Shown piece by piece: positions 18,279 through 24,709 of a stretch of DNA of 64,000 nt. Under the pieces are notes generated by a model. That model had not been told where the DNA came from. It was given only the letters and a program-made list of their open reading frames with translations, and did no database searches. Source of the DNA: an uncultured Dehalococcoidia bacterium (GTDB lineage: Bacteria; Chloroflexota; Dehalococcoidia; Lucifugimonadales; UBA3495); contig CAYFGT010000006.1 of assembly GCA_964343075.1 (NCBI GenBank), positions 2,016 through 66,015 of the forward strand, in the 5' to 3' direction. Within the stretch, counting starts at the first letter, position 1. Every line of letters starts with the position of its first letter. The position numbers and the translations under genes are program-made.

Positions 18279-20567
18279 ATGGCTACTAACACAAATATAT
18301 ATACAGAGACTGAATATAACGTAGTTGGAACCAGACCAGTGCGCCACGATGGGTACGAAAAAGTTACAGGAGCAGCCAAATATGGGGCCGATATACAACT
18401 ATCCAATATGCTTTACGGAAAGGTACTTCGGAGTCCTCATCCCCATGCAGTAATAAAATCAATAGATACTACAGCCGCAGAGTCTATGCCTGGCGTAGAA
18501 GCGGTGATGACTCACAAAGATTTTCCAATCATCGAAGACCAAATGATCGACCTCGCAGAAACTAGAGCTAACGCAAGGCTCATGGCCGAACACCTGATGG
18601 CACACAAAAAAGCTCTTTATAAAGGCCACGCAATCGCTGCAGTTGCTGCTACAGACCCCCATACCGCTGAACTAGCACTAGACTTAATAAAAGTAGAATA
18701 TCAAATACTAGAACCAGTACTAACATATAAACAAGCGATCCAACCAGAAGCTCCACTTTTGCATGATGATATGACTACACATTTCAAATCAGAAAGATTC
18801 GCTAGAGGAGATGATTCCGGAACCAAAAGCAATATCGCAAGCCATATACAACACAAATTAGGGGATACTGCTGAAGGTTTTAAAGCATCAGATTTTGTTT
18901 TAGAGAGAGAATTCACAACTGAAACAGTACATCAAGGTTACATAGAACCTCATGCATCGACTGCAACTTGGCCTGGAGATGGCAGAGTGCACATCTGGAC
19001 TTGCACTCAGGGGGCATTCGGAGTCCGATCCGCAACTGCTGCCATATTAGGACTACCCGAATCCATGGTGAAAGTAACACCCACAGAAATCGGTGGAGGA
19101 TTCGGTGCCAAAGCGACGACCTACTTGGAGCCTGTAGCGGCCGTCTTATCACAAAAAAGCGGCAAGCCTGTAAAAGTAATAATGTCCAGAAAAGATGTAT
19201 TTGAAGGGACAGGACCAACTTCTGCAACGTGGGCAAACGCAAAAATTGGATTTATGAATTCTGGAATCATCACTGCCATCGAATTGACAATGTATTTTGA
19301 AGCAGGCGCATATCCTGGTTCTCCTGTCGGAGGCGCCACACTTTGTGCAACAGGTCCTTATAACGTCGAGAATCTACTGATAGACGGATATGACGTTGTA
19401 TGTAACAAACAAAAAGTTCAGGCGTATAGGGCTCCTGGACAGCCTCAAGGTGCATTCGCCATTGAACCAGTCATAGACGAAGCTGCAATTCTTCTCAATA
19501 TGGACCCGATGGAACTCAGGCTATTAAATGCGGTCAAAGAAGGTGATCGCATGCCTAACGGAGTTCGCCACCCAAGAATTGGATGTATAGAACTAGAAGA
19601 AGCCATGAAAGAACATCCTCACTATAATGAAAAATTAAACAAACCCAATCAAGGCAGAGGTATAGCCGTCGGATATCGTTGGCAGGGCGGGCAAGTATCT
19701 TCAGCTACTATAAATGTTAATAATAATGGCACCATAAACCTCATAACCGGCTCTGTGGATATTGGGGGATCTCGGACAGCGGTTGCAATGCAAGCCGCTG
19801 AGGTTTTAGGAATCACCTCTGATGAAGTCTCACCTATCGTTGCTGACACAGATATGGTTGGTTATACCGCCAATACAGGGGGCAGCAGAACCGCTTATGA
19901 TACTGGACTAGCTGCAATCGAAGCTTCCAATCTTGTCATCCAAGAGATGAAATCCCGAGCGTCGCTATTCTGGGAAGTACAACAGGAGGATGTCAAATTT
20001 GAGAATGGTACATTTACATGTATTAAGAATCCAGAAGATACGTTATCTTTCAAAGATATAGCTAGGAGACAGATGGGGAGCGGAGGACCCATAACTTGCT
20101 CGGCATCTGCAACTTCAACAGGAGTCGGGCCCATTATTGCAGGCAATATAATCGATGTGGAAGTTGATCCTGAAACTGGCAAGGTATCCATACTGAAATG
20201 CACTTCATTTTTAGACGTTGGTTTTCCTGCACATCCAAGCTACGTCGAAGGCCAAATACAAGGTGCTACTGTACAAGGCATAGGGTGGGCTTTGAATGAA
20301 GAGTATGTCTATAACGACAATGGAGCAGTGGATAACGCAAGCTTCTTGGATTATCGAATGCCTACTAGCCTTGATGTCCCAATGATTGAGTCTGTTATGG
20401 TTACAGTGCCTAATCCGAGACATCCGTTTGGTCTACGAGGAGTCGGGGAAGCTCCAATAATTCCCCCATTATCTGCTATACACAATGCAATCAACGATGC
20501 GTTAGGTGTGCGGATAAACTCGTTACCTATCACGCCAAACAAAATCCTACAACATCTAAACAAATAA
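18279..20567 (+). CDS. molybdopterin-binding large subunit of a xanthine dehydrogenase/aldehyde oxidase-family hydroxylase
   Basis: 762 aa. GGGFG motif and an active-site loop QAYRAPGQ, which is not the CO-dehydrogenase VAYRCSFR or AYRGAGR loop. No adjacent small or medium subunit genes. Confidence 0.85.
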   Translation: MATNTNIYTETEYNVVGTRPVRHDGYEKVTGAAKYGADIQLSNMLYGKVLRSPHPHAVIKSIDTTAAESMPGVEAVMTHKDFPIIEDQMIDLAETRANARLMAEHLMAHKKALYKGHAIAAVAATDPHTAELALDLIKVEYQILEPVLTYKQAIQPEAPLLHDDMTTHFKSERFARGDDSGTKSNIASHIQHKLGDTAEGFKASDFVLEREFTTETVHQGYIEPHASTATWPGDGRVHIWTCTQGAFGVRSATAAILGLPESMVKVTPTEIGGGFGAKATTYLEPVAAVLSQKSGKPVKVIMSRKDVFEGTGPTSATWANAKIGFMNSGIITAIELTMYFEAGAYPGSPVGGATLCATGPYNVENLLIDGYDVVCNKQKVQAYRAPGQPQGAFAIEPVIDEAAILLNMDPMELRLLNAVKEGDRMPNGVRHPRIGCIELEEAMKEHPHYNEKLNKPNQGRGIAVGYRWQGGQVSSATINVNNNGTINLITGSVDIGGSRTAVAMQAAEVLGITSDEVSPIVADTDMVGYTANTGGSRTAYDTGLAAIEASNLVIQEMKSRASLFWEVQQEDVKFENGTFTCIKNPEDTLSFKDIARRQMGSGGPITCSASATSTGVGPIIAGNIIDVEVDPETGKVSILKCTSFLDVGFPAHPSYVEGQIQGATVQGIGWALNEEYVYNDNGAVDNASFLDYRMPTSLDVPMIESVMVTVPNPRHPFGLRGVGEAPIIPPLSAIHNAINDALGVRINSLPITPNKILQHLNK

Positions 20568-20585: not shown

Positions 20586-21740
20586 ATGTCTAGCAAATTA
20601 AGTAAATGCCATAACACCAAAGATTTTAGAAAACTTGCAAGAAAACGGATACCGTCACCTATTTTCAATTATCTAGATGGCGGAGCAGATGATGAAACGA
20701 CATTAGCAAGGAATACCGACTCTTTTGAGGCATGTGACCTAGTTCCTAACGTATTACGAAGCGTAGGAACCATAGATACTAGTGTTTCTGTGATGGGCAA
20801 GAAAATCAACACACCTTTGTTCTTCTCTCCTACGGCACTGCAACGCCTATTCCATCATCAAGGAGAAAAAGCTGTAGCAAAAGCGGCAGAAAAATTTGGT
20901 ACTTACTGCGGAATATCATCATTAGCAACAGTTAGTATCGAGGAAATAGCAAAGAACTACTCTTCGCCTAAAATGTTCCAGTTATATGTACACAAGGACC
21001 AAGGCTTAAACAATAGCATGATAGAAAAATGCATTGAGCACAATTTTGACGCTTTAGCAATAACGGTTGATACTATCGTGGCTGGAAATAGGGAACGGGA
21101 TTTCTACACAGGGTTCACTACCCCGCCCAAACTGACACCCAAAAGCATGCTCAGCTTTGCGACCCATCCGGCCTGGACGGCAAACTATCTTTTCCGCGAA
21201 AAATTTGAATTGCCCCAACTACAAAGCCACGTCAAAGAAGGTACAGATGTGAAAGTATCGATTGGAGAATATTTCACGTCACTGATTGATCAGAATATGA
21301 ATTGGGACACTATCAATCAAATCAGTAAGAAATGGGGGAAAGCATTATGTATTAAAGGGATCATGTCAGCTGAAGATGCCAAGAAAGCGGTTGATATCGG
21401 GGCTACCGCAATTATGGTGTCTAACCATGGAGGTAGACAACTTGACGGCTCCCGGGCACCATTTGATCAATTAGCTGAGATCGTTGACGCTGTTGGAGAC
21501 AAAGTAGATGTCATCTGTGATGGCGGTATACGGCGAGGAACCCATGTGCTAAAAGCCCTATCACTGGGAGCAAAAGCCTGTTCTGGAGGGAGAATGTATT
21601 TATATGCATTAGCCGCAGGCGGGGAACAGGGGGTAGAACGTGCTATGCAACTAATGCAAGACGAGATCGAACGAGGCATGAAACTAATGGGCTGTACGAA
21701 CATAAATGAATTAAGCAGAGACAATATAAGGTATAGATAA
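20586..21740 (+). CDS. FMN-dependent alpha-hydroxy acid dehydrogenase (L-lactate dehydrogenase/glycolate oxidase family)
   Basis: 384 aa. SNHGGRQLD and GGIRRG motifs. Starts 18 nt after the Mo-hydroxylase gene. Confidence 0.9.
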   Translation: MSSKLSKCHNTKDFRKLARKRIPSPIFNYLDGGADDETTLARNTDSFEACDLVPNVLRSVGTIDTSVSVMGKKINTPLFFSPTALQRLFHHQGEKAVAKAAEKFGTYCGISSLATVSIEEIAKNYSSPKMFQLYVHKDQGLNNSMIEKCIEHNFDALAITVDTIVAGNRERDFYTGFTTPPKLTPKSMLSFATHPAWTANYLFREKFELPQLQSHVKEGTDVKVSIGEYFTSLIDQNMNWDTINQISKKWGKALCIKGIMSAEDAKKAVDIGATAIMVSNHGGRQLDGSRAPFDQLAEIVDAVGDKVDVICDGGIRRGTHVLKALSLGAKACSGGRMYLYALAAGGEQGVERAMQLMQDEIERGMKLMGCTNINELSRDNIRYR

Positions 21741-21745
21741 GCTTT

Positions 21746-22780
21746 CTATGAAACAGAATTTACATCTATTTTTTCTGTAACAGAGTGAGTAGTGCCGCCA
21801 AAAGTAGGAATCCACGAAGAATGCTTCCCAGGTCCTCCTGTAACACCAATCAATAAATCAGAAGTTTCTCTGACCATCGGTACTGGCCCTTTAGGGATTT
21901 CCCCAAATCGCTCCATAAGAGTATCATGAGTATATCTATCTAAGGGTATTAATGCATGCTTCATAAGCCACTCGATAACATCTTGCTTAGTGAACCCATC
22001 TCTTGCTATAGTTTCTGCATGTTCGGGGCCAAACAACAAAACCGTTTGACCACCAGTATATGCATTGTTAGCTCCTGTCACCCCCATAGCTCCAGCAACA
22101 ATCGTTAATATTTCTTCTGCTGACCTACCTGTATGATCATTTATATTGTGAGGAGATTCTCCTGCAACTACAGTAACTGTACTATCGTCAATATCAAATC
22201 CCATATCTACATGGATCGGTTTCCAAGGAGTCAAGTCTTCATTTTCTCCTATGCAAAACGAAAATTTCCCAGGGGAGCCTTGAGAAGACATATCGCCAAT
22301 ACCGGGATTCCCTCCTCCTACATTTAACAATATTAATCTCATAGCTCTGCCAATCACTGCATTAGCAACGAACCCTGGTCCAAACACTCCGGAAGAACAA
22401 TTAATGTTCAATGCTTCTCTAATAGGACCATTAACAATCATCAATACACCACACGGGTGTGTGGTAGCTTGTATGGCATACAGATTAAATTCCGGCTGTA
22501 TAATAGCTTTTATCGCCGCAATTACTACAGGAAAATGCTCCGTACGACACCCTGCCATAACTGCATTAATGGCAACTTTTTCAATAGTTGCCGCCCCCCA
22601 ATTCGGAGGTATCTCTCCCAATACATGACCACGATCAAATCCGCTAGATGCTATCATAGCGTCTACTCTGTCTGGAGTCGGGGGAATTATAGGAAGCCCA
22701 TCACTCCAACCGTGTTTCGTAAAATAATCGTTGATTGCTTCGGAGGATGATGGCAATGAAATTATTTCATTAGGATCCAT
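21746..22780 (-). CDS. conserved-looking hypothetical protein, partner of the UGSC selenoprotein
   Basis: 344 aa, soluble. The ATG lies 5 nt after the selenoprotein TAA with GGGAG upstream. Cys at positions 78, 110, 128 and 176 (VMAGC, THPCG, INCSSG, FSFCIG). I cannot name a family from memory. Confidence 0.6.
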   Translation of the reverse strand: MDPNEIISLPSSSEAINDYFTKHGWSDGLPIIPPTPDRVDAMIASSGFDRGHVLGEIPPNWGAATIEKVAINAVMAGCRTEHFPVVIAAIKAIIQPEFNLYAIQATTHPCGVLMIVNGPIREALNINCSSGVFGPGFVANAVIGRAMRLILLNVGGGNPGIGDMSSQGSPGKFSFCIGENEDLTPWKPIHVDMGFDIDDSTVTVVAGESPHNINDHTGRSAEEILTIVAGAMGVTGANNAYTGGQTVLLFGPEHAETIARDGFTKQDVIEWLMKHALIPLDRYTHDTLMERFGEIPKGPVPMVRETSDLLIGVTGGPGKHSSWIPTFGGTTHSVTEKIDVNSVS

Positions 22781-22784
22781 GAAG

Positions 22785-23321
22785 TTACGCTCCCATCCAT
22801 CCTTTAATGATTTGATCTACAAAAACGTCTGCTAATTCTTTCACTTCCTTTTTCTCAATGCCTCCAAAGGGATGTTTCCCAATAGCGACTGGTAAATCAG
22901 GCATTCCAAGAGTTTTACTTTCCGAATCCGCAAGTCTGATAAATCTATCAGAACATATTGTGACCGTATTAACATTTAATTTCTCTAGCTCAACCGCGTC
23001 ATGGATACACCATGAAGTGCACGAGCCTCAATCTGCTAAACCTATTATTGCTAAGTCTATTTCTGTAGCCATGATCTCTAATGTTTCTTCGTCAAGAGGT
23101 ATAGAGGCCGTCCATTTACTGTAATAAGTAACATCAGATAAATTCAATTTTGGAACTAATATGCTCTCTAGACTTTTAAATATCACTTCACCATTTGGTT
23201 TGTTATTCCACAAAAATCCAAGCCTCTTACCTTCCAGATTTTCAGTTCGATTAGACAATTCGTTTCGCAGTATTCTGGGTTTCGCGGTAGGATTTAATAC
23301 CGAAATAGTATCTAACATCAT
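22785..23321 (-). CDS. UGSC-family selenoprotein (in-frame UGA = Sec at 23028..23030), 178 aa
   Basis: The listed 97-aa ORF ends at TGA. The same frame continues for 80 sense codons (GSCTSWCIHDAVELEKLNVNTVTICSDRFIRLADSESKTLGMPDLPVAIGKHPFGGIEKKEVKELADVFVDQIIKGWMGA) to TAA at 22785..22787. The motif is ...IIGLAD-U-GSC, and a hairpin follows the UGA. Confidence 0.75.
22988..23026 (-). promoter_or_regulatory. SECIS-like stem-loop immediately 3' of the UGA
   Basis: mRNA sequence GCUCGUGCACUUCAUGGUGUAUCCAUGACGCGGUUGAGC. Apical stem CAUGG/CCAUG with loop UGUAU (contains GU), lower pairings GCUC/GAGC or CGUG/CGCG. It starts 4 nt after the UGA, and the loop lies roughly 21-25 nt after it. Confidence 0.5.
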
Positions 23322-23369
23322 CTACTCCTAATTATTCAGGATGGTTTATACACTGTCGTTGTAATACAC

Positions 23370-23386
23370 TATGATAACCTATCATA
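23370..23386. promoter_or_regulatory. 17-bp palindrome TATGATA-ACC-TATCATA in the divergent selenoprotein/pepP promoter region
   Basis: Perfect 7-bp inverted arms with a 3-nt spacer, centred in the 80-nt intergenic region. Candidate operator. Confidence 0.3.
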
Positions 23387-23401
23387 TGAAAGGATTGTAC
23401 A

Positions 23402-24709
23402 GTGGAACAAAGCATCTATTCGGACAGACGTAACAAATTAATGGACTTCATCGGAGAAGGAGTCGCAATTATAGCCTCTGGAGTAGAAAAAACCCGAAAC
23501 AACGACGTTAACTATATATTCCGACAAGATTCAACGTTTTGGTATTTTACAGGTTTTGAAGAACCTAATTCTGTAGTTGTATTAGCCCCAAATACCGACA
23601 AACCATACACCATGTTCGTACCTCCATACGACGAAAATTACGAGACTTGGGTAGGGCAAAGAGCAGGGATAGAAGGAGCCATCGGTCAGTACTTAGCCGA
23701 TCAGGCATTCCCTATAGAAGACCTTGAAACCCGCCTACCTCAGCTATTATCTGACACCTCTACTCTGTATTTCACTCCTAACCCGGACCATGATCTGGAT
23801 CCCTTAATTAATAAAATACTCTCTTCTCAACGTAGAAATCATTCAAGAGGGGGAGCATTAATCACAAATGTACGAGATCTCTCTAGTATCACATCCAATA
23901 TGCGATTAACCAAAACAGACCAAGAAATCACACAAATCAAAAAGGCAATAGACATAACAGATAAAGGATTTATCAAAGCATTCTCCAATACACTCCCAGG
24001 AAAATATGAATACCAAATTCAAGCAAGCTTAGAATCCCAATTTAGAGACCTTGGTTCGCCCAGAAACGGATATCCTTCGATTGTTGCCGGTGGCTCAAAC
24101 AGCTGCACACTCCACTACATTAAAAATGATGAAGTTCTAGCTGACGGAGACCTTCTTCTTATCGATGCTGGAGCTGAATTTGATTATTACACTGCTGACA
24201 TAACCAGAACATGGCCTATAAACGGCAAGTTCTCAAGCGAACAGCTTGAAACTTATTCAATTGTATTAGCAGCTCAGGAAGCCGCTATAAAATCAATCAA
24301 GCCTGGAATTACCTTTGAAGAGGTTCATCAAGCTGCTCTGAAAATCTTAGTGCAAGGGCTAAAAGATCTAGGGATTCTCAAAGAATCCCTAGATTCTATA
24401 ATAGAAGAAAAATCGTATGCCCCCTATTATATGCACGCGACTTCACACTGGCTTGGTCTCGATGTCCATGATGCCGGGATCTACAGGAACTCCAAAGGAT
24501 CTATCAAACTTGAACGTGGCATGGTTCTAACTGTTGAGCCAGGTTTATATTTTGGGAAACTAGCCCCCAATGTACCTAAACAATTTCAAGGTATCGGAAT
24601 TAGAATAGAAGACAATATCCTCGTTACCGATGTCGGATTTGATAATCTATCACGCAACATACCTAGCCTTCCTAACGAGTTGGAACAATTGATTGGGACG
24701 GGGTCATAA
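23402..24709 (+). CDS. pepP: Xaa-Pro aminopeptidase (M24B)
   Basis: 435 aa with a GTG start. Metal-ligand blocks LLLIDAGAEFDYYTADITRT, HWLGLDVHD and VLTVEPGLY...GIRIED. Confidence 0.9.
   Translation: MEQSIYSDRRNKLMDFIGEGVAIIASGVEKTRNNDVNYIFRQDSTFWYFTGFEEPNSVVVLAPNTDKPYTMFVPPYDENYETWVGQRAGIEGAIGQYLADQAFPIEDLETRLPQLLSDTSTLYFTPNPDHDLDPLINKILSSQRRNHSRGGALITNVRDLSSITSNMRLTKTDQEITQIKKAIDITDKGFIKAFSNTLPGKYEYQIQASLESQFRDLGSPRNGYPSIVAGGSNSCTLHYIKNDEVLADGDLLLIDAGAEFDYYTADITRTWPINGKFSSEQLETYSIVLAAQEAAIKSIKPGITFEEVHQAALKILVQGLKDLGILKESLDSIIEEKSYAPYYMHATSHWLGLDVHDAGIYRNSKGSIKLERGMVLTVEPGLYFGKLAPNVPKQFQGIGIRIEDNILVTDVGFDNLSRNIPSLPNELEQLIGTGS

What the first reader, a model, noticed from the sequence alone, without database searches (positions are those of the whole stretch)
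21746..23401. Candidate undescribed two-gene Sec-dependent module: UGSC selenoprotein plus a 344-aa Cys-rich partner
The selenoprotein gene is followed 5 nt later, with its own GGGAG, by a 344-aa soluble protein beginning MDPNEII...HGWSDGLPIIPPTPDRV. It contains VMAGC, ATTHPCG, INCSSG and FSFCIG, and I cannot assign it to any named family. The pair forms a compact operon with its own divergent promoter region, convergent on a Mo-hydroxylase large subunit plus FMN-dependent 2-hydroxyacid dehydrogenase operon. The arrangement of a small UxxC selenoprotein coupled to a larger Cys-bearing protein resembles known Sec reductase systems such as the glycine and proline reductase components, though I see no sequence similarity to them. 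My hypothesis is a thiol/selenol redox or reductase system of unknown substrate.
Basis: inference. Interest (0 to 1): 0.8.

Follow-up and report, generated by a model that had tools for sequence, protein, structure and literature searches.

The report
UGSC selenoprotein and obligate partner enzyme
A small selenocysteine protein from a named but functionally unexplained family (UGSC) lies next to a 344-residue protein from an uncatalogued family; across hundreds of bacterial and archaeal genomes the two are almost always adjacent or fused, so they are probably two halves of one uncharacterised redox enzyme.

Summary
On the minus strand, a 178-aa gene (23321..22785) with an in-frame TGA (Sec98, motif D-U-G-S-C) is followed 4 nt later by a 344-aa gene (22780..21746).

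The selenoprotein is not new. It belongs to the UGSC family (NCBIfam NF041046, Pfam PF24696), known since 2007-2008 and still without a function. The partner matches no Pfam or NCBIfam model and no solved structure, yet it has more than 5,000 clusters of relatives at 50% identity.

The pairing is close to obligate:
- Seeded on the partner, 75 of 80 genome loci carry UGSC. Three of the five exceptions are cut by a contig end.
- Seeded on UGSC, 73 of 83 informative metagenome loci have the partner immediately downstream.
- Fusions occur in both orders.
- 76 of 77 in-frame stops at the Sec position are TGA, each followed by a conserved SECIS hairpin.

Partner domains are also fused to thioredoxin-reductase-like, thioredoxin-fold and ferredoxin:thioredoxin-reductase domains. 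trxB-like genes share the operon in 12 of 80 loci.

Best reading: a two-subunit selenol/thiol reductase of unknown substrate. UGSC is a distant PrdB/GrdB-like Sec subunit, and the partner is a catalytic subunit with no solved structural relative. The reductase chemistry is inferred, not shown.

The parts
22785..23321 (-). UGSC-family selenoprotein gene: 178 codons plus TAA, with Sec at codon 98. The real start may be the second ATG at 23318.
   Evidence: Translation. NCBIfam NF041046 scores 126.1 bits against a cut-off of 125, and Pfam PF24696 gives E 1e-43.
23028..23030 (-). In-frame TGA read as selenocysteine (U of D-U-G-S-C).
   Evidence: The same position is TGA in 76 homologues, TAG in 1 and Cys in 3. 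Natural fusion proteins carry CGSC at this site.
22987..23027 (-). SECIS-type hairpin starting directly after the TGA. The apical stem is 23015-22999 and the loop UGUAU is at 23009-23005.
   Evidence: Folds at -16.8 kcal/mol, z -2.0. The family-wide hairpin is more stable than control windows, -17.3 against -12.2 kcal/mol, p 3e-13. In register, 92% of base-pair cells are paired, the loop is GUN in 157 of 177 sequences, and there are double-sided changes.
22790..22794 (-). GGGAG ribosome-binding site for the partner gene, inside the 3' end of the UGSC gene. A 4-nt spacer (22784-22781) lies between the UGSC stop and the partner ATG.
   Evidence: Read directly from the sequence. Tight spacing or 4-nt overlaps are common in homologous pairs.
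21746..22780 (-). Partner gene: 344 aa, an uncatalogued family. Conserved residues are D27, C78, T107, N140, R145, C176 and E179.
   Evidence: No Pfam, NCBIfam, PADLOC or PHROGs hit. Relatives: more than 7,491 homologues and 5,339 clusters at 50% identity. Conservation. The AF2 model has pLDDT 94.1 and no PDB neighbour.
23322..23401 (.). 80-nt divergent intergenic region. It holds AGGAG (23329-23325) and promoter-like hexamers for both directions (minus strand 23359-23331, plus strand 23347-23375).
   Evidence: One search gives consensus matches only, no more frequent than in shuffles. Sequence read.

Best explanation
The two genes encode the two subunits of one selenoenzyme.

Shown:
- UGA98 of the first gene is recoded to selenocysteine with the help of a SECIS hairpin that lies directly downstream, inside the coding sequence.
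- The two families are near-obligately linked, and partner domains occur fused to disulfide-reductase modules.

Inferred:
- UGSC is a small flavodoxin-like alpha/beta domain. Its U-G-S-C motif sits at the N-terminus of a helix. It is distantly related to the Sec-bearing core of the PrdB/GrdB 'selenoprotein B' proteins. It forms a fixed complex with the 344-aa partner.
- The partner supplies the substrate pocket: invariant R145 and E179, near-invariant D27, N140 and T107, and a nucleophilic Cys78 at a helix N-cap, with Cys176 in most members.
- The selenolate of Sec98 attacks either an oxidised or adducted Cys78 of the partner, or the bound substrate itself. Cys101 then resolves the intermediate into a selenenylsulfide.
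- That selenenylsulfide is re-reduced by a thioredoxin / thioredoxin-reductase-type donor using NAD(P)H.
- The net reaction is reduction of a small organic substrate. The substrate probably differs between the many paralogues. Gene neighbourhoods hint at carboxylic acids or their CoA esters.
For: Family assignment and Sec:
- UGSC is assigned by curated HMMs.
- The TGA and the SECIS hairpin are conserved.

Pairing:
- 75 of 80 partner-seeded genome loci from many bacterial phyla plus haloarchaea contain UGSC. Three of the five exceptions are cut by a contig end.
- Gene order among the 84 UGSC genes found: 51 separate with the partner immediately downstream, 19 fused through the TGA, 6 in reverse order.
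- Reciprocal test: 118 of 120 metagenome seeds fall in UGSC genes. Of 83 with enough downstream DNA, 73 have the partner downstream, 2 upstream and 2 elsewhere in the locus. The 6 with none all have less than 550 nt of upstream sequence.
- Fusions exist as UGSC-partner (P0127, P0130, P0133, P0137) and partner-UGSC (P0126, P0155, P0240, P0242).
- UGSC and partner distance matrices correlate, Mantel r 0.87 against a permutation maximum of 0.19.
- The AF2 model of the natural fusion P0127 has pLDDT 93.6 and pTM 0.93 despite a low-confidence linker, which implies a defined domain arrangement.

Redox wiring:
- Partner::TrxR-like fusion P0159, encoded directly after a Sec-UGSC gene.
- TrxR-like::UGSC fusion in L049.
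- FTR-beta::partner fusion P0259.
- Thioredoxin-fold CxxC::partner fusions P0246 and P0258.
- trxB-like genes in 12 of 80 genome loci and in the Variovorax plasmid operon.

Sec is important:
- 76 Sec forms against 3 Cys forms here, and 255 against 21 in GOS (PMC2398784).

Remote link to selenoprotein B:
- 6 of 15 UGSC sequences hit TIGR01917 across its Sec region.
- hhalign against PrdB-like proteins gives E 9e-4 and aligns U-G-S-C with C-P-V-C.

Context:
- Multiple paralogous pairs occur in one locus. Neighbours vary: TctC binding proteins, family III CoA-transferases, enoyl-CoA hydratases, SDRs, acyl-CoA dehydrogenase and ligase.
Against: - No biochemical data exist for either family, so the reductase chemistry and the direction of electron flow are inferred.
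- The hhalign probability for the PrdB link is only 22%.
- The window itself has no trxB-like gene, and most loci lack one.
- Some family members lack the resolving Cys101 (L066, L067, L075). Some have a degenerate UGSC domain with neither Sec nor Cys (L019, L032). One lacks C78 (L059). The scheme therefore cannot be universal in detail.
- Two partner genes have no UGSC within 5 kb (L043, L068).
- Neighbourhoods are too variable to name a substrate.
Confidence: 0.58

Rival explanations
1. Stickland-type reductase analogue. UGSC plays the role of PrdB/GrdB, and the partner plays the role of PrdA/GrdE. The partner would cleave itself at the invariant G77-C78 bond to make an N-terminal pyruvoyl group. 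That group would bind an amine substrate, and Sec98 would then attack it to cleave a C-N or C-X bond reductively.
For: - UGSC shows weak, Sec-aligned similarity to selenoprotein B and PrdB-like profiles.
- G77 is at least 95% conserved and C78 is 94% conserved.
- Sec is strongly preferred over Cys (PMC2398784), as in Grd/Prd.
- From established knowledge: PrdA and GrdE form pyruvoyl from a Cys.
Against: - The partner has no detectable similarity to any Pfam family, including the Gly_reductase family, at E up to 1.
- In the AF2 model C78 lies between two helices, at a helix N-cap. That position is typical of redox or nucleophilic Cys rather than of a strand-turn self-cleavage site.
- Fusions to Trx-fold, FTR-beta and TrxR modules fit disulfide exchange with the partner.
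- No PrdA or GrdE sequence was available for a direct profile comparison.
Confidence: 0.1
2. The partner is a non-redox enzyme, for example an isomerase, lyase or hydrolase that uses Cys78. UGSC would only be a dedicated redoxin that keeps the catalytic Cys reduced or regulates the enzyme. No net reduction of substrate would occur.
For: - There is a single strongly conserved Cys plus invariant Arg and Glu.
- Foldseek gives weak hits to hydro-lyases and cyclic amide hydrolases.
- A few orphan partners and degenerate UGSC domains exist.
Against: - A mere protective redoxin rarely shows near-obligate adjacency, fusion in both orders, and near-universal use of costly Sec.
- The Foldseek hits have TM of 0.28 or less, and the fumarase lead fails at sequence level.
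Confidence: 0.15
3. Antioxidant or repair system. The pair would reduce an oxidised cellular metabolite or a protein modification (peroxide, sulfoxide or disulfide type), like Prx/Msr-thioredoxin systems.
For: - UxxC motif and Trx/TrxR linkage.
- Most prokaryotic selenoproteins are assumed to be redox or antioxidant proteins (PMC13188914).
Against: - Several paralogous pairs occur per genome, and up to three in tandem (L060, L032, L001).
- The pairs sit among transport and catabolic genes and sometimes on plasmids. That pattern points to substrate-diverse metabolism rather than a housekeeping defence.
Confidence: 0.1
4. The TGA is a true stop codon. The locus would then hold two small unrelated ORFs or a pseudogene, and the adjacency would be accidental.
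For: Gene callers split the gene at the TGA.
Against: - Both halves match one Pfam model in frame.
- 76 homologues share the TGA and 3 have Cys at that position.
- The SECIS hairpin is conserved.
- Adjacency statistics.
Confidence: 0.01

Closest known systems
UGSC family (seleno)protein (NCBIfam NF041046, Pfam PF24696); 'UGSC-containing protein' of Zhang and Gladyshev (PMC1976440, PMC2398784)
   Same: The window protein is a member. It passes both curated HMMs, has the D-U-G-S-C-T-S-W motif and the family SECIS hairpin, and comes from a marine organism.
   Different: Nothing differs for the selenoprotein itself. The literature gives no function. It guessed a thioredoxin-like fold, but the AF2 model and Foldseek hits point to a flavodoxin-like alpha/beta domain.
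UGSC/'Unknown_1' fusion reported in GOS reads (PMC2398784, Fig. S1A)
   Same: A UGSC domain is fused to a conserved domain of unknown function that has a conserved Cys and is found in aquatic organisms. This is very probably the partner family, because UGSC-partner fusions are common.
   Different: I could not verify identity: the figure is held only as an image, and the UGSC part of the dataset is cut off. The paper did not report the near-obligate operon pairing, the reverse-order fusions, the TrxR/Trx/FTR fusions or the taxonomic breadth.
Selenoprotein B type subunits with their pyruvoyl partners (GrdB/GrdE of glycine reductase, PrdB/PrdA of D-proline reductase)
   Same: - A Sec subunit with a UxxC motif is paired with a larger substrate-specific subunit.
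- Sec is strongly preferred over Cys.
- UGSC gives weak profile similarity that aligns Sec with the Sec/Cys of the B proteins, and also aligns the following E..G-I/V-P-T-V and P-x-G-G/N-P segments.
   Different: - UGSC is far below the family cut-offs (15 bits against 602) and covers only the C-terminal core.
- The partner shows no similarity to any Pfam family.
- No GrdA, GrdC or GrdD homologues turned up among the loci's recurrent neighbours, though no targeted search for them was run.
- The hosts are mostly aerobic or facultative lineages rather than Stickland fermenters.
Thioredoxin-dependent single-Cys or two-Cys reductases with dedicated or fused redoxins (MsrA/B-Trx fusions, peroxiredoxin-AhpF, ArsC-Trx)
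   Same: The logic of a catalytic domain with a nucleophilic Cys, recycled by a CxxC/UxxC redoxin and an NAD(P)H flavoprotein, with variable fusions among the three modules.
   Different: - No sequence or structural similarity of the partner to any of these.
- The redoxin is not thioredoxin-fold.

Membership tests
UGSC family (NF041046 / PF24696) | Score above the curated HMM cut-offs | tested here: met
   NF041046 scores 126.1 bits against a cut-off of 125. PF24696 scores 150 bits against 25 and covers residues 8-176.
UGSC family (NF041046 / PF24696) | U/C-G-S-C motif, with Sec encoded by an in-frame TGA | tested here: met
   A-D-U-G-S-C-T-S-W at codons 96-104, with TGA at 23030-23028. The column is conserved in 67 of 69 paired homologues.
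UGSC family (NF041046 / PF24696) | Bacterial SECIS hairpin directly downstream of the UGA | tested here: met
   Window hairpin. Family-wide pairing is 92% in register, with a GUN loop. No Rfam model exists for it.
Selenoprotein B (GrdB/GrdF/GrdH/PrdB; TIGR01917, TIGR01918) | Score above the curated HMM cut-off over the full length | tested here: not met
   15.2 bits against 602.2. Only model positions 327-408 of 431 are matched. 6 of 15 UGSC sequences give weak hits, the best at E 7.6e-4.
Selenoprotein B (GrdB/GrdF/GrdH/PrdB; TIGR01917, TIGR01918) | Homologous Sec-bearing UxxC core | tested here: inconclusive
   hhalign of UGSC against PrdB-like proteins gives E 9.4e-4 but probability 22%. The alignment puts U98 on the first Cys of CPVC. 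Pairwise BLASTP gives E 0.52.
Selenoprotein B (GrdB/GrdF/GrdH/PrdB; TIGR01917, TIGR01918) | Adjacent pyruvoyl proprotein of the GrdE/PrdA family | tested here: not met
   The partner, and 103 relatives and fusions, hit no Pfam family other than UGSC and redox add-on domains at E up to 1. I could not run a direct profile comparison with GrdE/PrdA because no sequences were in reach.
Thioredoxin-fold redoxins | Thioredoxin fold around the UxxC motif | tested here: not met
   The AF2 model of the UGSC domain is a parallel beta-alpha-beta sandwich. Foldseek hits are lumazine synthase, PurE and GH3 alpha/beta domains.
Partner family (unnamed; RefSeq 'hypothetical protein') | Full-length homology with the motifs DGLP..PPT, NAVMAGC, GPG.RANATIGRA, AENE..PW, VAGGPG.HS | tested here: met
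   Full-length hits at 62-82% identity. Motif conservation. Plasmid copies are annotated as hypothetical protein.
Class I (Fe-S) fumarate hydratase / Toblerone-fold hydrolases (best Foldseek hits of the partner) | Shared fold or detectable sequence homology | tested here: not met
   TM-scores are 0.28 or lower with rmsd 13-17 Å. hhalign of the partner profile against E. coli FumA gives E 0.39.

The most novel reading that the evidence does not exclude
The partner family is a new enzyme class, with no solved structural relative. Together with the PrdB-like UGSC subunit it would form a widespread Sec-dependent reductive bond-cleaving system: an aerobic counterpart of the Stickland reductases. 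Its paralogues would each handle a different small organic acid, amine or CoA ester in oligotrophic marine (SAR202-type Dehalococcoidia), soil and groundwater bacteria and in haloarchaea. That would explain why UGSC is one of the most abundant selenoproteins in ocean metagenomes.
Probability: 0.2. Interest if true: 0.85.

Novelty: new variant of a known kind. Interest (0 to 1): 0.6.

Why it matters
UGSC has been listed among the most abundant prokaryotic selenoprotein families in ocean metagenomes since 2007-2008. Reviews up to 2026 still give it no function (PMC2398784, PMC13188914).

This work gives the problem a concrete handle:
- UGSC is almost never alone. It comes with one specific protein family that is uncatalogued, highly conserved and has no solved structural relative.
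- Both are wired to thioredoxin-reductase-type modules.
- The enzyme to purify is therefore the pair or a natural fusion, not the small selenoprotein by itself.

Several cultured organisms carry the module. Robertmurraya sp. 2P01SA, Vineibacter terrae and Blastococcus sp. carry TGA- or TAG-interrupted (Sec-type) copies. Natrialba asiatica, Natrinema and Variovorax sp. SRS16 have natural Cys forms that can be expressed without Sec machinery.

The result also shows a gap in Pfam and NCBIfam: more than 5,000 clusters at 50% identity, all annotated as hypothetical.

Tried and rejected
- **Single-protein genome scan:** using the partner protein alone found nothing. The alignment-based scan worked.
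- **Structure of the window's own pair:** I tried to predict it as a synthetic concatenation. Coordinates are not returned, so I could not measure the Sec-Cys78 distance.
- **Partner fold:**
  - Foldseek against PDB gave only low-TM hits to class I fumarases and Toblerone-fold hydrolases.
  - The PDB sequence profile search was empty.
  - hhalign against E. coli FumA was negative. This lead is rejected.
- **UGSC structure:** the UGSC profile found nothing in PDB.
- **Rfam:** no SECIS match.
- **Defence or phage origin:** PADLOC and PHROGs gave no hits. Rejected.
- **'Unknown_1' of PMC2398784:** I could not verify it against the partner. The figure is an image and the dataset text is truncated.
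- **Protein downstream of Bradyrhizobium PrdB-like genes:** the 436-aa protein is not related to the partner, hhalign E 0.6.
- **Window's flanking genes:** FMN_dh, Mo-hydroxylase, M24 peptidase and LysE are not conserved neighbours, present in 1, 4, 0 and 0 of 200 loci. They say nothing about function.
- **Source contig:** an exact-sequence lookup failed. Cluster members place the protein in Tara Oceans and marine Dehalococcoidia data.
- **Literature:** searches for UGSC and DUF6282 found no functional work.
Full report
**What is in the window.** Both genes lie on the minus strand.
- The first ORF starts at ATG 23321, with a second ATG at 23318. It has one in-frame TGA at 23030-23028 and ends at TAA 22787-22785. 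Read through the TGA it gives 178 residues with A-D-U-G-S-C-T-S-W-C around residue 98.
- Four nucleotides later, preceded by GGGAG at 22794-22790, a 344-codon ORF runs from 22780 to 21746.
- The pair is convergent on an FMN-dependent dehydrogenase gene (20586-21740) and a Mo-hydroxylase large subunit gene (18279-20567).
- It is divergent from an M24 Xaa-Pro aminopeptidase gene (23402-24709) across 80 nt.
- Promoter-like hexamers occur in that gap but are no more frequent than in shuffled sequence. No terminator-like hairpin was found.
- The window has about 40% G+C. The closest relatives of the partner are from marine Dehalococcoidia MAGs and Tara Oceans data.

**The selenoprotein is a known family.**
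- It passes the curated NCBIfam model NF041046, 'UGSC family (seleno)protein' (126.1 bits, cut-off 125), and Pfam PF24696 (E 1e-43).
- The family was named 'UGSC-containing protein' in 2007-2008. [quoted passage not shown] Its function was unknown (PMC1976440, PMC2398784).
- Reviews from 2022 and 2026 still list it as uncharacterised (PMC9312934, PMC13188914).

**The TGA is a real Sec codon.**
- Among 84 UGSC genes recovered from 80 genome loci, the aligned position is TGA in 76, TAG in 1 and Cys in 3.
- Directly downstream there is a hairpin. In the window it folds at -16.8 kcal/mol, with a 6-bp apical stem and a UGUAU loop.
- Across 77 homologues the 45 nt after the UGA fold at a mean of -17.3 kcal/mol, against -12.2 for control windows in the same genes (Wilcoxon p 3e-13).
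- In 177 unique sequences the eight stem pairs are formed in 92% of cells, against 19-51% when the register is shifted. The loop is GUN in 157 of them, and several pairs show double-sided changes.
- Rfam has no model that matches.

**The partner is uncatalogued but very large and conserved.**
- It hits nothing in Pfam, NCBIfam, PADLOC or PHROGs.
- It has more than 7,491 relatives in the 90%-clustered collection, all 'hypothetical', and 5,339 clusters at 50% identity.
- RefSeq annotates plasmid copies as 'hypothetical protein'.
- Over 141 diverse domains, R145 and E179 are invariant. D27 and N140 are 97% conserved, C78 (VMAGC) 94%, T107 94% and C176 (FSFC) 80-90%. C110 and C128 are not conserved.
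- AlphaFold2 gives a confident model (pLDDT 94.1, pTM 0.93). It has no real neighbour among solved structures: the best TM-score is 0.28, to class I fumarases and Toblerone-fold hydrolases.
- A sequence profile finds nothing in the PDB, and hhalign to E. coli FumA is negative.

**The pairing is close to obligate.**
The 80 loci kept come from Dehalococcoidia, Binatia, Burkholderiales, Rokubacteria/Methylomirabilota, Acidimicrobiales, Alphaproteobacteria, Actinomycetota, a Bacillaceae isolate and haloarchaea.
- Seventy-five of the 80 contain a UGSC homologue. Three of the other five have the partner at a contig end.
- Of the 84 UGSC genes, 51 are followed directly by a separate partner gene, about a third of them with a 4-nt overlap. 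Nineteen are fused to it in one frame through the TGA. Six have the partner upstream. Four are separated by another gene, usually a DUF6282 gene.
- For the reciprocal test I seeded metagenome contigs with a DNA pattern for D-U-G-S-C-T-S-W. Of 120 matches, 118 were UGSC genes. Of 83 with at least 600 nt downstream, 73 had the partner downstream, 2 upstream and 2 elsewhere in the locus. The 6 with none all had less than 550 nt of upstream sequence.
- At the protein level there are UGSC-partner fusions with CGSC (P0127, P0130, P0133, P0137), many ORFs that start just after the Sec codon and run into the partner, and partner-UGSC fusions in the reverse order.
- UGSC and partner distances correlate strongly across 69 pairs, Mantel r 0.87 against a permutation maximum of 0.19.
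- A model of the natural fusion P0127 has pTM 0.93 although its linker is low-confidence, which implies a defined arrangement of the two domains.
- The window's own flanking genes are not conserved neighbours.

**Evidence for redox wiring.**
- Partner domains are also found fused to a C-terminal thioredoxin-reductase-like flavoprotein (P0159), an N-terminal ferredoxin:thioredoxin reductase catalytic subunit (P0259), and N-terminal thioredoxin-fold CxxC domains (P0246, P0258).
- P0159 is encoded immediately after a Sec-UGSC gene, so all three modules sit in one operon.
- In Blastococcus the TrxR-like protein is fused to UGSC instead.
- trxB-like genes lie in 12 of 80 genome loci, often directly upstream of UGSC, and in the Variovorax SRS16 plasmid operon.
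- The window has no such gene and no second copy of the pair.

**What UGSC resembles.**
- In the fusion model the UGSC domain is a parallel beta-alpha-beta sandwich, with the Sec at the start of a helix.
- Foldseek matches flavodoxin-like domains such as lumazine synthase and PurE, not thioredoxins. This disagrees with the 2008 guess of a thioredoxin-like fold.
- Six of 15 UGSC sequences give weak hits to the glycine reductase selenoprotein B model over the region that carries its Sec.
- hhalign against PrdB-like proteins aligns U-G-S-C with C-P-V-C and the following segments, at E 9e-4 but only 22% probability.
- I read this as a plausible remote relationship to the Sec core of the Grd/Prd B proteins, not as membership.

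**Most likely mechanism.**
- Shown: Sec recoding, family membership of UGSC, near-obligate genetic linkage and fusion with the partner, and linkage to disulfide-reductase modules.
- Inferred:
  - The two proteins form a complex.
  - The partner binds the substrate with R145, E179, D27 and N140 and uses Cys78.
  - Sec98 attacks an oxidised or adducted Cys78, or the substrate itself.
  - Cys101 resolves the intermediate to a selenenylsulfide.
  - A Trx/TrxR-type donor re-reduces it.
- Paralogue multiplicity (up to three tandem fusions in L060) and variable catabolic or transport neighbours suggest substrate-diverse metabolism. Those neighbours include TctC and NMT1 binding proteins, family III CoA-transferases, enoyl-CoA hydratases, SDRs, acyl-CoA dehydrogenase and ligase, and amidohydrolases. 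Possible substrates are organic acids or CoA esters.
- Rivals are a pyruvoyl-based Stickland-like reductase (G77-C78 cleavage), a non-redox enzyme with a guardian redoxin, and an antioxidant or repair system. None is excluded. The first two are separable by simple protein chemistry.

**Novelty and score.**
- The selenoprotein family is known, and a fusion of UGSC to an unknown domain was noted in 2008. 'Undescribed' is therefore too strong.
- I found the following described nowhere in the searchable literature:
  - the identity and size of the partner family;
  - its near-obligate pairing with UGSC in both directions;
  - the alternative fusions to TrxR, Trx and FTR modules;
  - the non-thioredoxin fold of UGSC;
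  - the absence of any solved structural relative of the partner.
- I rate it a new variant of a known kind, namely a selenol/thiol reductase with a dedicated redoxin subunit. Interest is 0.6: not astonishing to a selenoprotein specialist, but it makes a long-standing open question directly testable.

Noticed in passing
L049 2983-4983 (Blastococcus sp. CT_GayMR19, NZ_SPQL01000008): A TrxR-like::UGSC fusion ORF has TAG instead of TGA at the Sec position, although the SECIS hairpin is intact. This could be a pseudogene, a sequencing error or something else.
   Followed up: no
L039; L004, L023, L066: Contigs labelled 'Candidatus Nitrosocosmicus' (a thaumarchaeon) and 'Bordetella parapertussis' MAGs carry bacterial-type Sec-UGSC/partner pairs. 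The bin labels look doubtful.
   Followed up: no
L008 1061-1921; L015 7935-8834; L026, L032, L044, L195; L206 6020-6871: A DUF6282 gene recurs inside or next to the UGSC-partner pair. In a Natrinema plasmid the operon is UGSC - partner - DUF6282 - NAD(P)-binding protein - MFS transporter. It may be a third component in one subfamily. No literature mentions DUF6282.
   Followed up: partly
L202 6001-8183 (Bradyrhizobium sp. AZCC 1719): A PrdB-like Cys protein (291 aa, annotated D-proline reductase PrdB or glycine reductase) is followed, with a 4-nt overlap, by a 436-aa protein with no Pfam hit. That protein is unrelated to the UGSC partner (hhalign E 0.6). This may be another 'PrdB-like subunit plus unknown large subunit' module in aerobes.
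   Followed up: partly
L066 4287-4853, L067 4356-4967, L075 4419-6038; L019 3029-4741, L032 8378-10099; L059 2367-3959: Variant modules exist. Some UGSC have Sec but no resolving Cys (GH-U-GSS, GD-U-GTS). Some degenerate UGSC domains with neither Sec nor Cys are still fused to a partner that keeps C78. One partner has Ala in place of C78.
   Followed up: partly
window 23316-23329: The UGSC gene has two tandem ATG codons. AGGAG at 23329-23325 is 3 nt from the first and 6 nt from the second, so translation may start at 23318, which would make the Sec residue 97.
   Followed up: no
L205 6081-6590 (Variovorax sp. SRS16 plasmid 3): A Cys-form UGSC homologue (…VAMCGSCTAAT…) downstream of the partner is annotated only as 'hypothetical protein' in RefSeq. 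trxB lies in the same gene cluster. The NCBIfam cut-off therefore misses divergent UGSC members.
   Followed up: partly
P0145 (717 aa), P0152 (741 aa): These proteins consist of two tandem partner domains with no UGSC domain.
   Followed up: no
window 21740-21746: The FMN_dh gene on the plus strand and the partner gene on the minus strand end only 5 nt apart. No terminator-like hairpin was detected between them.
   Followed up: no
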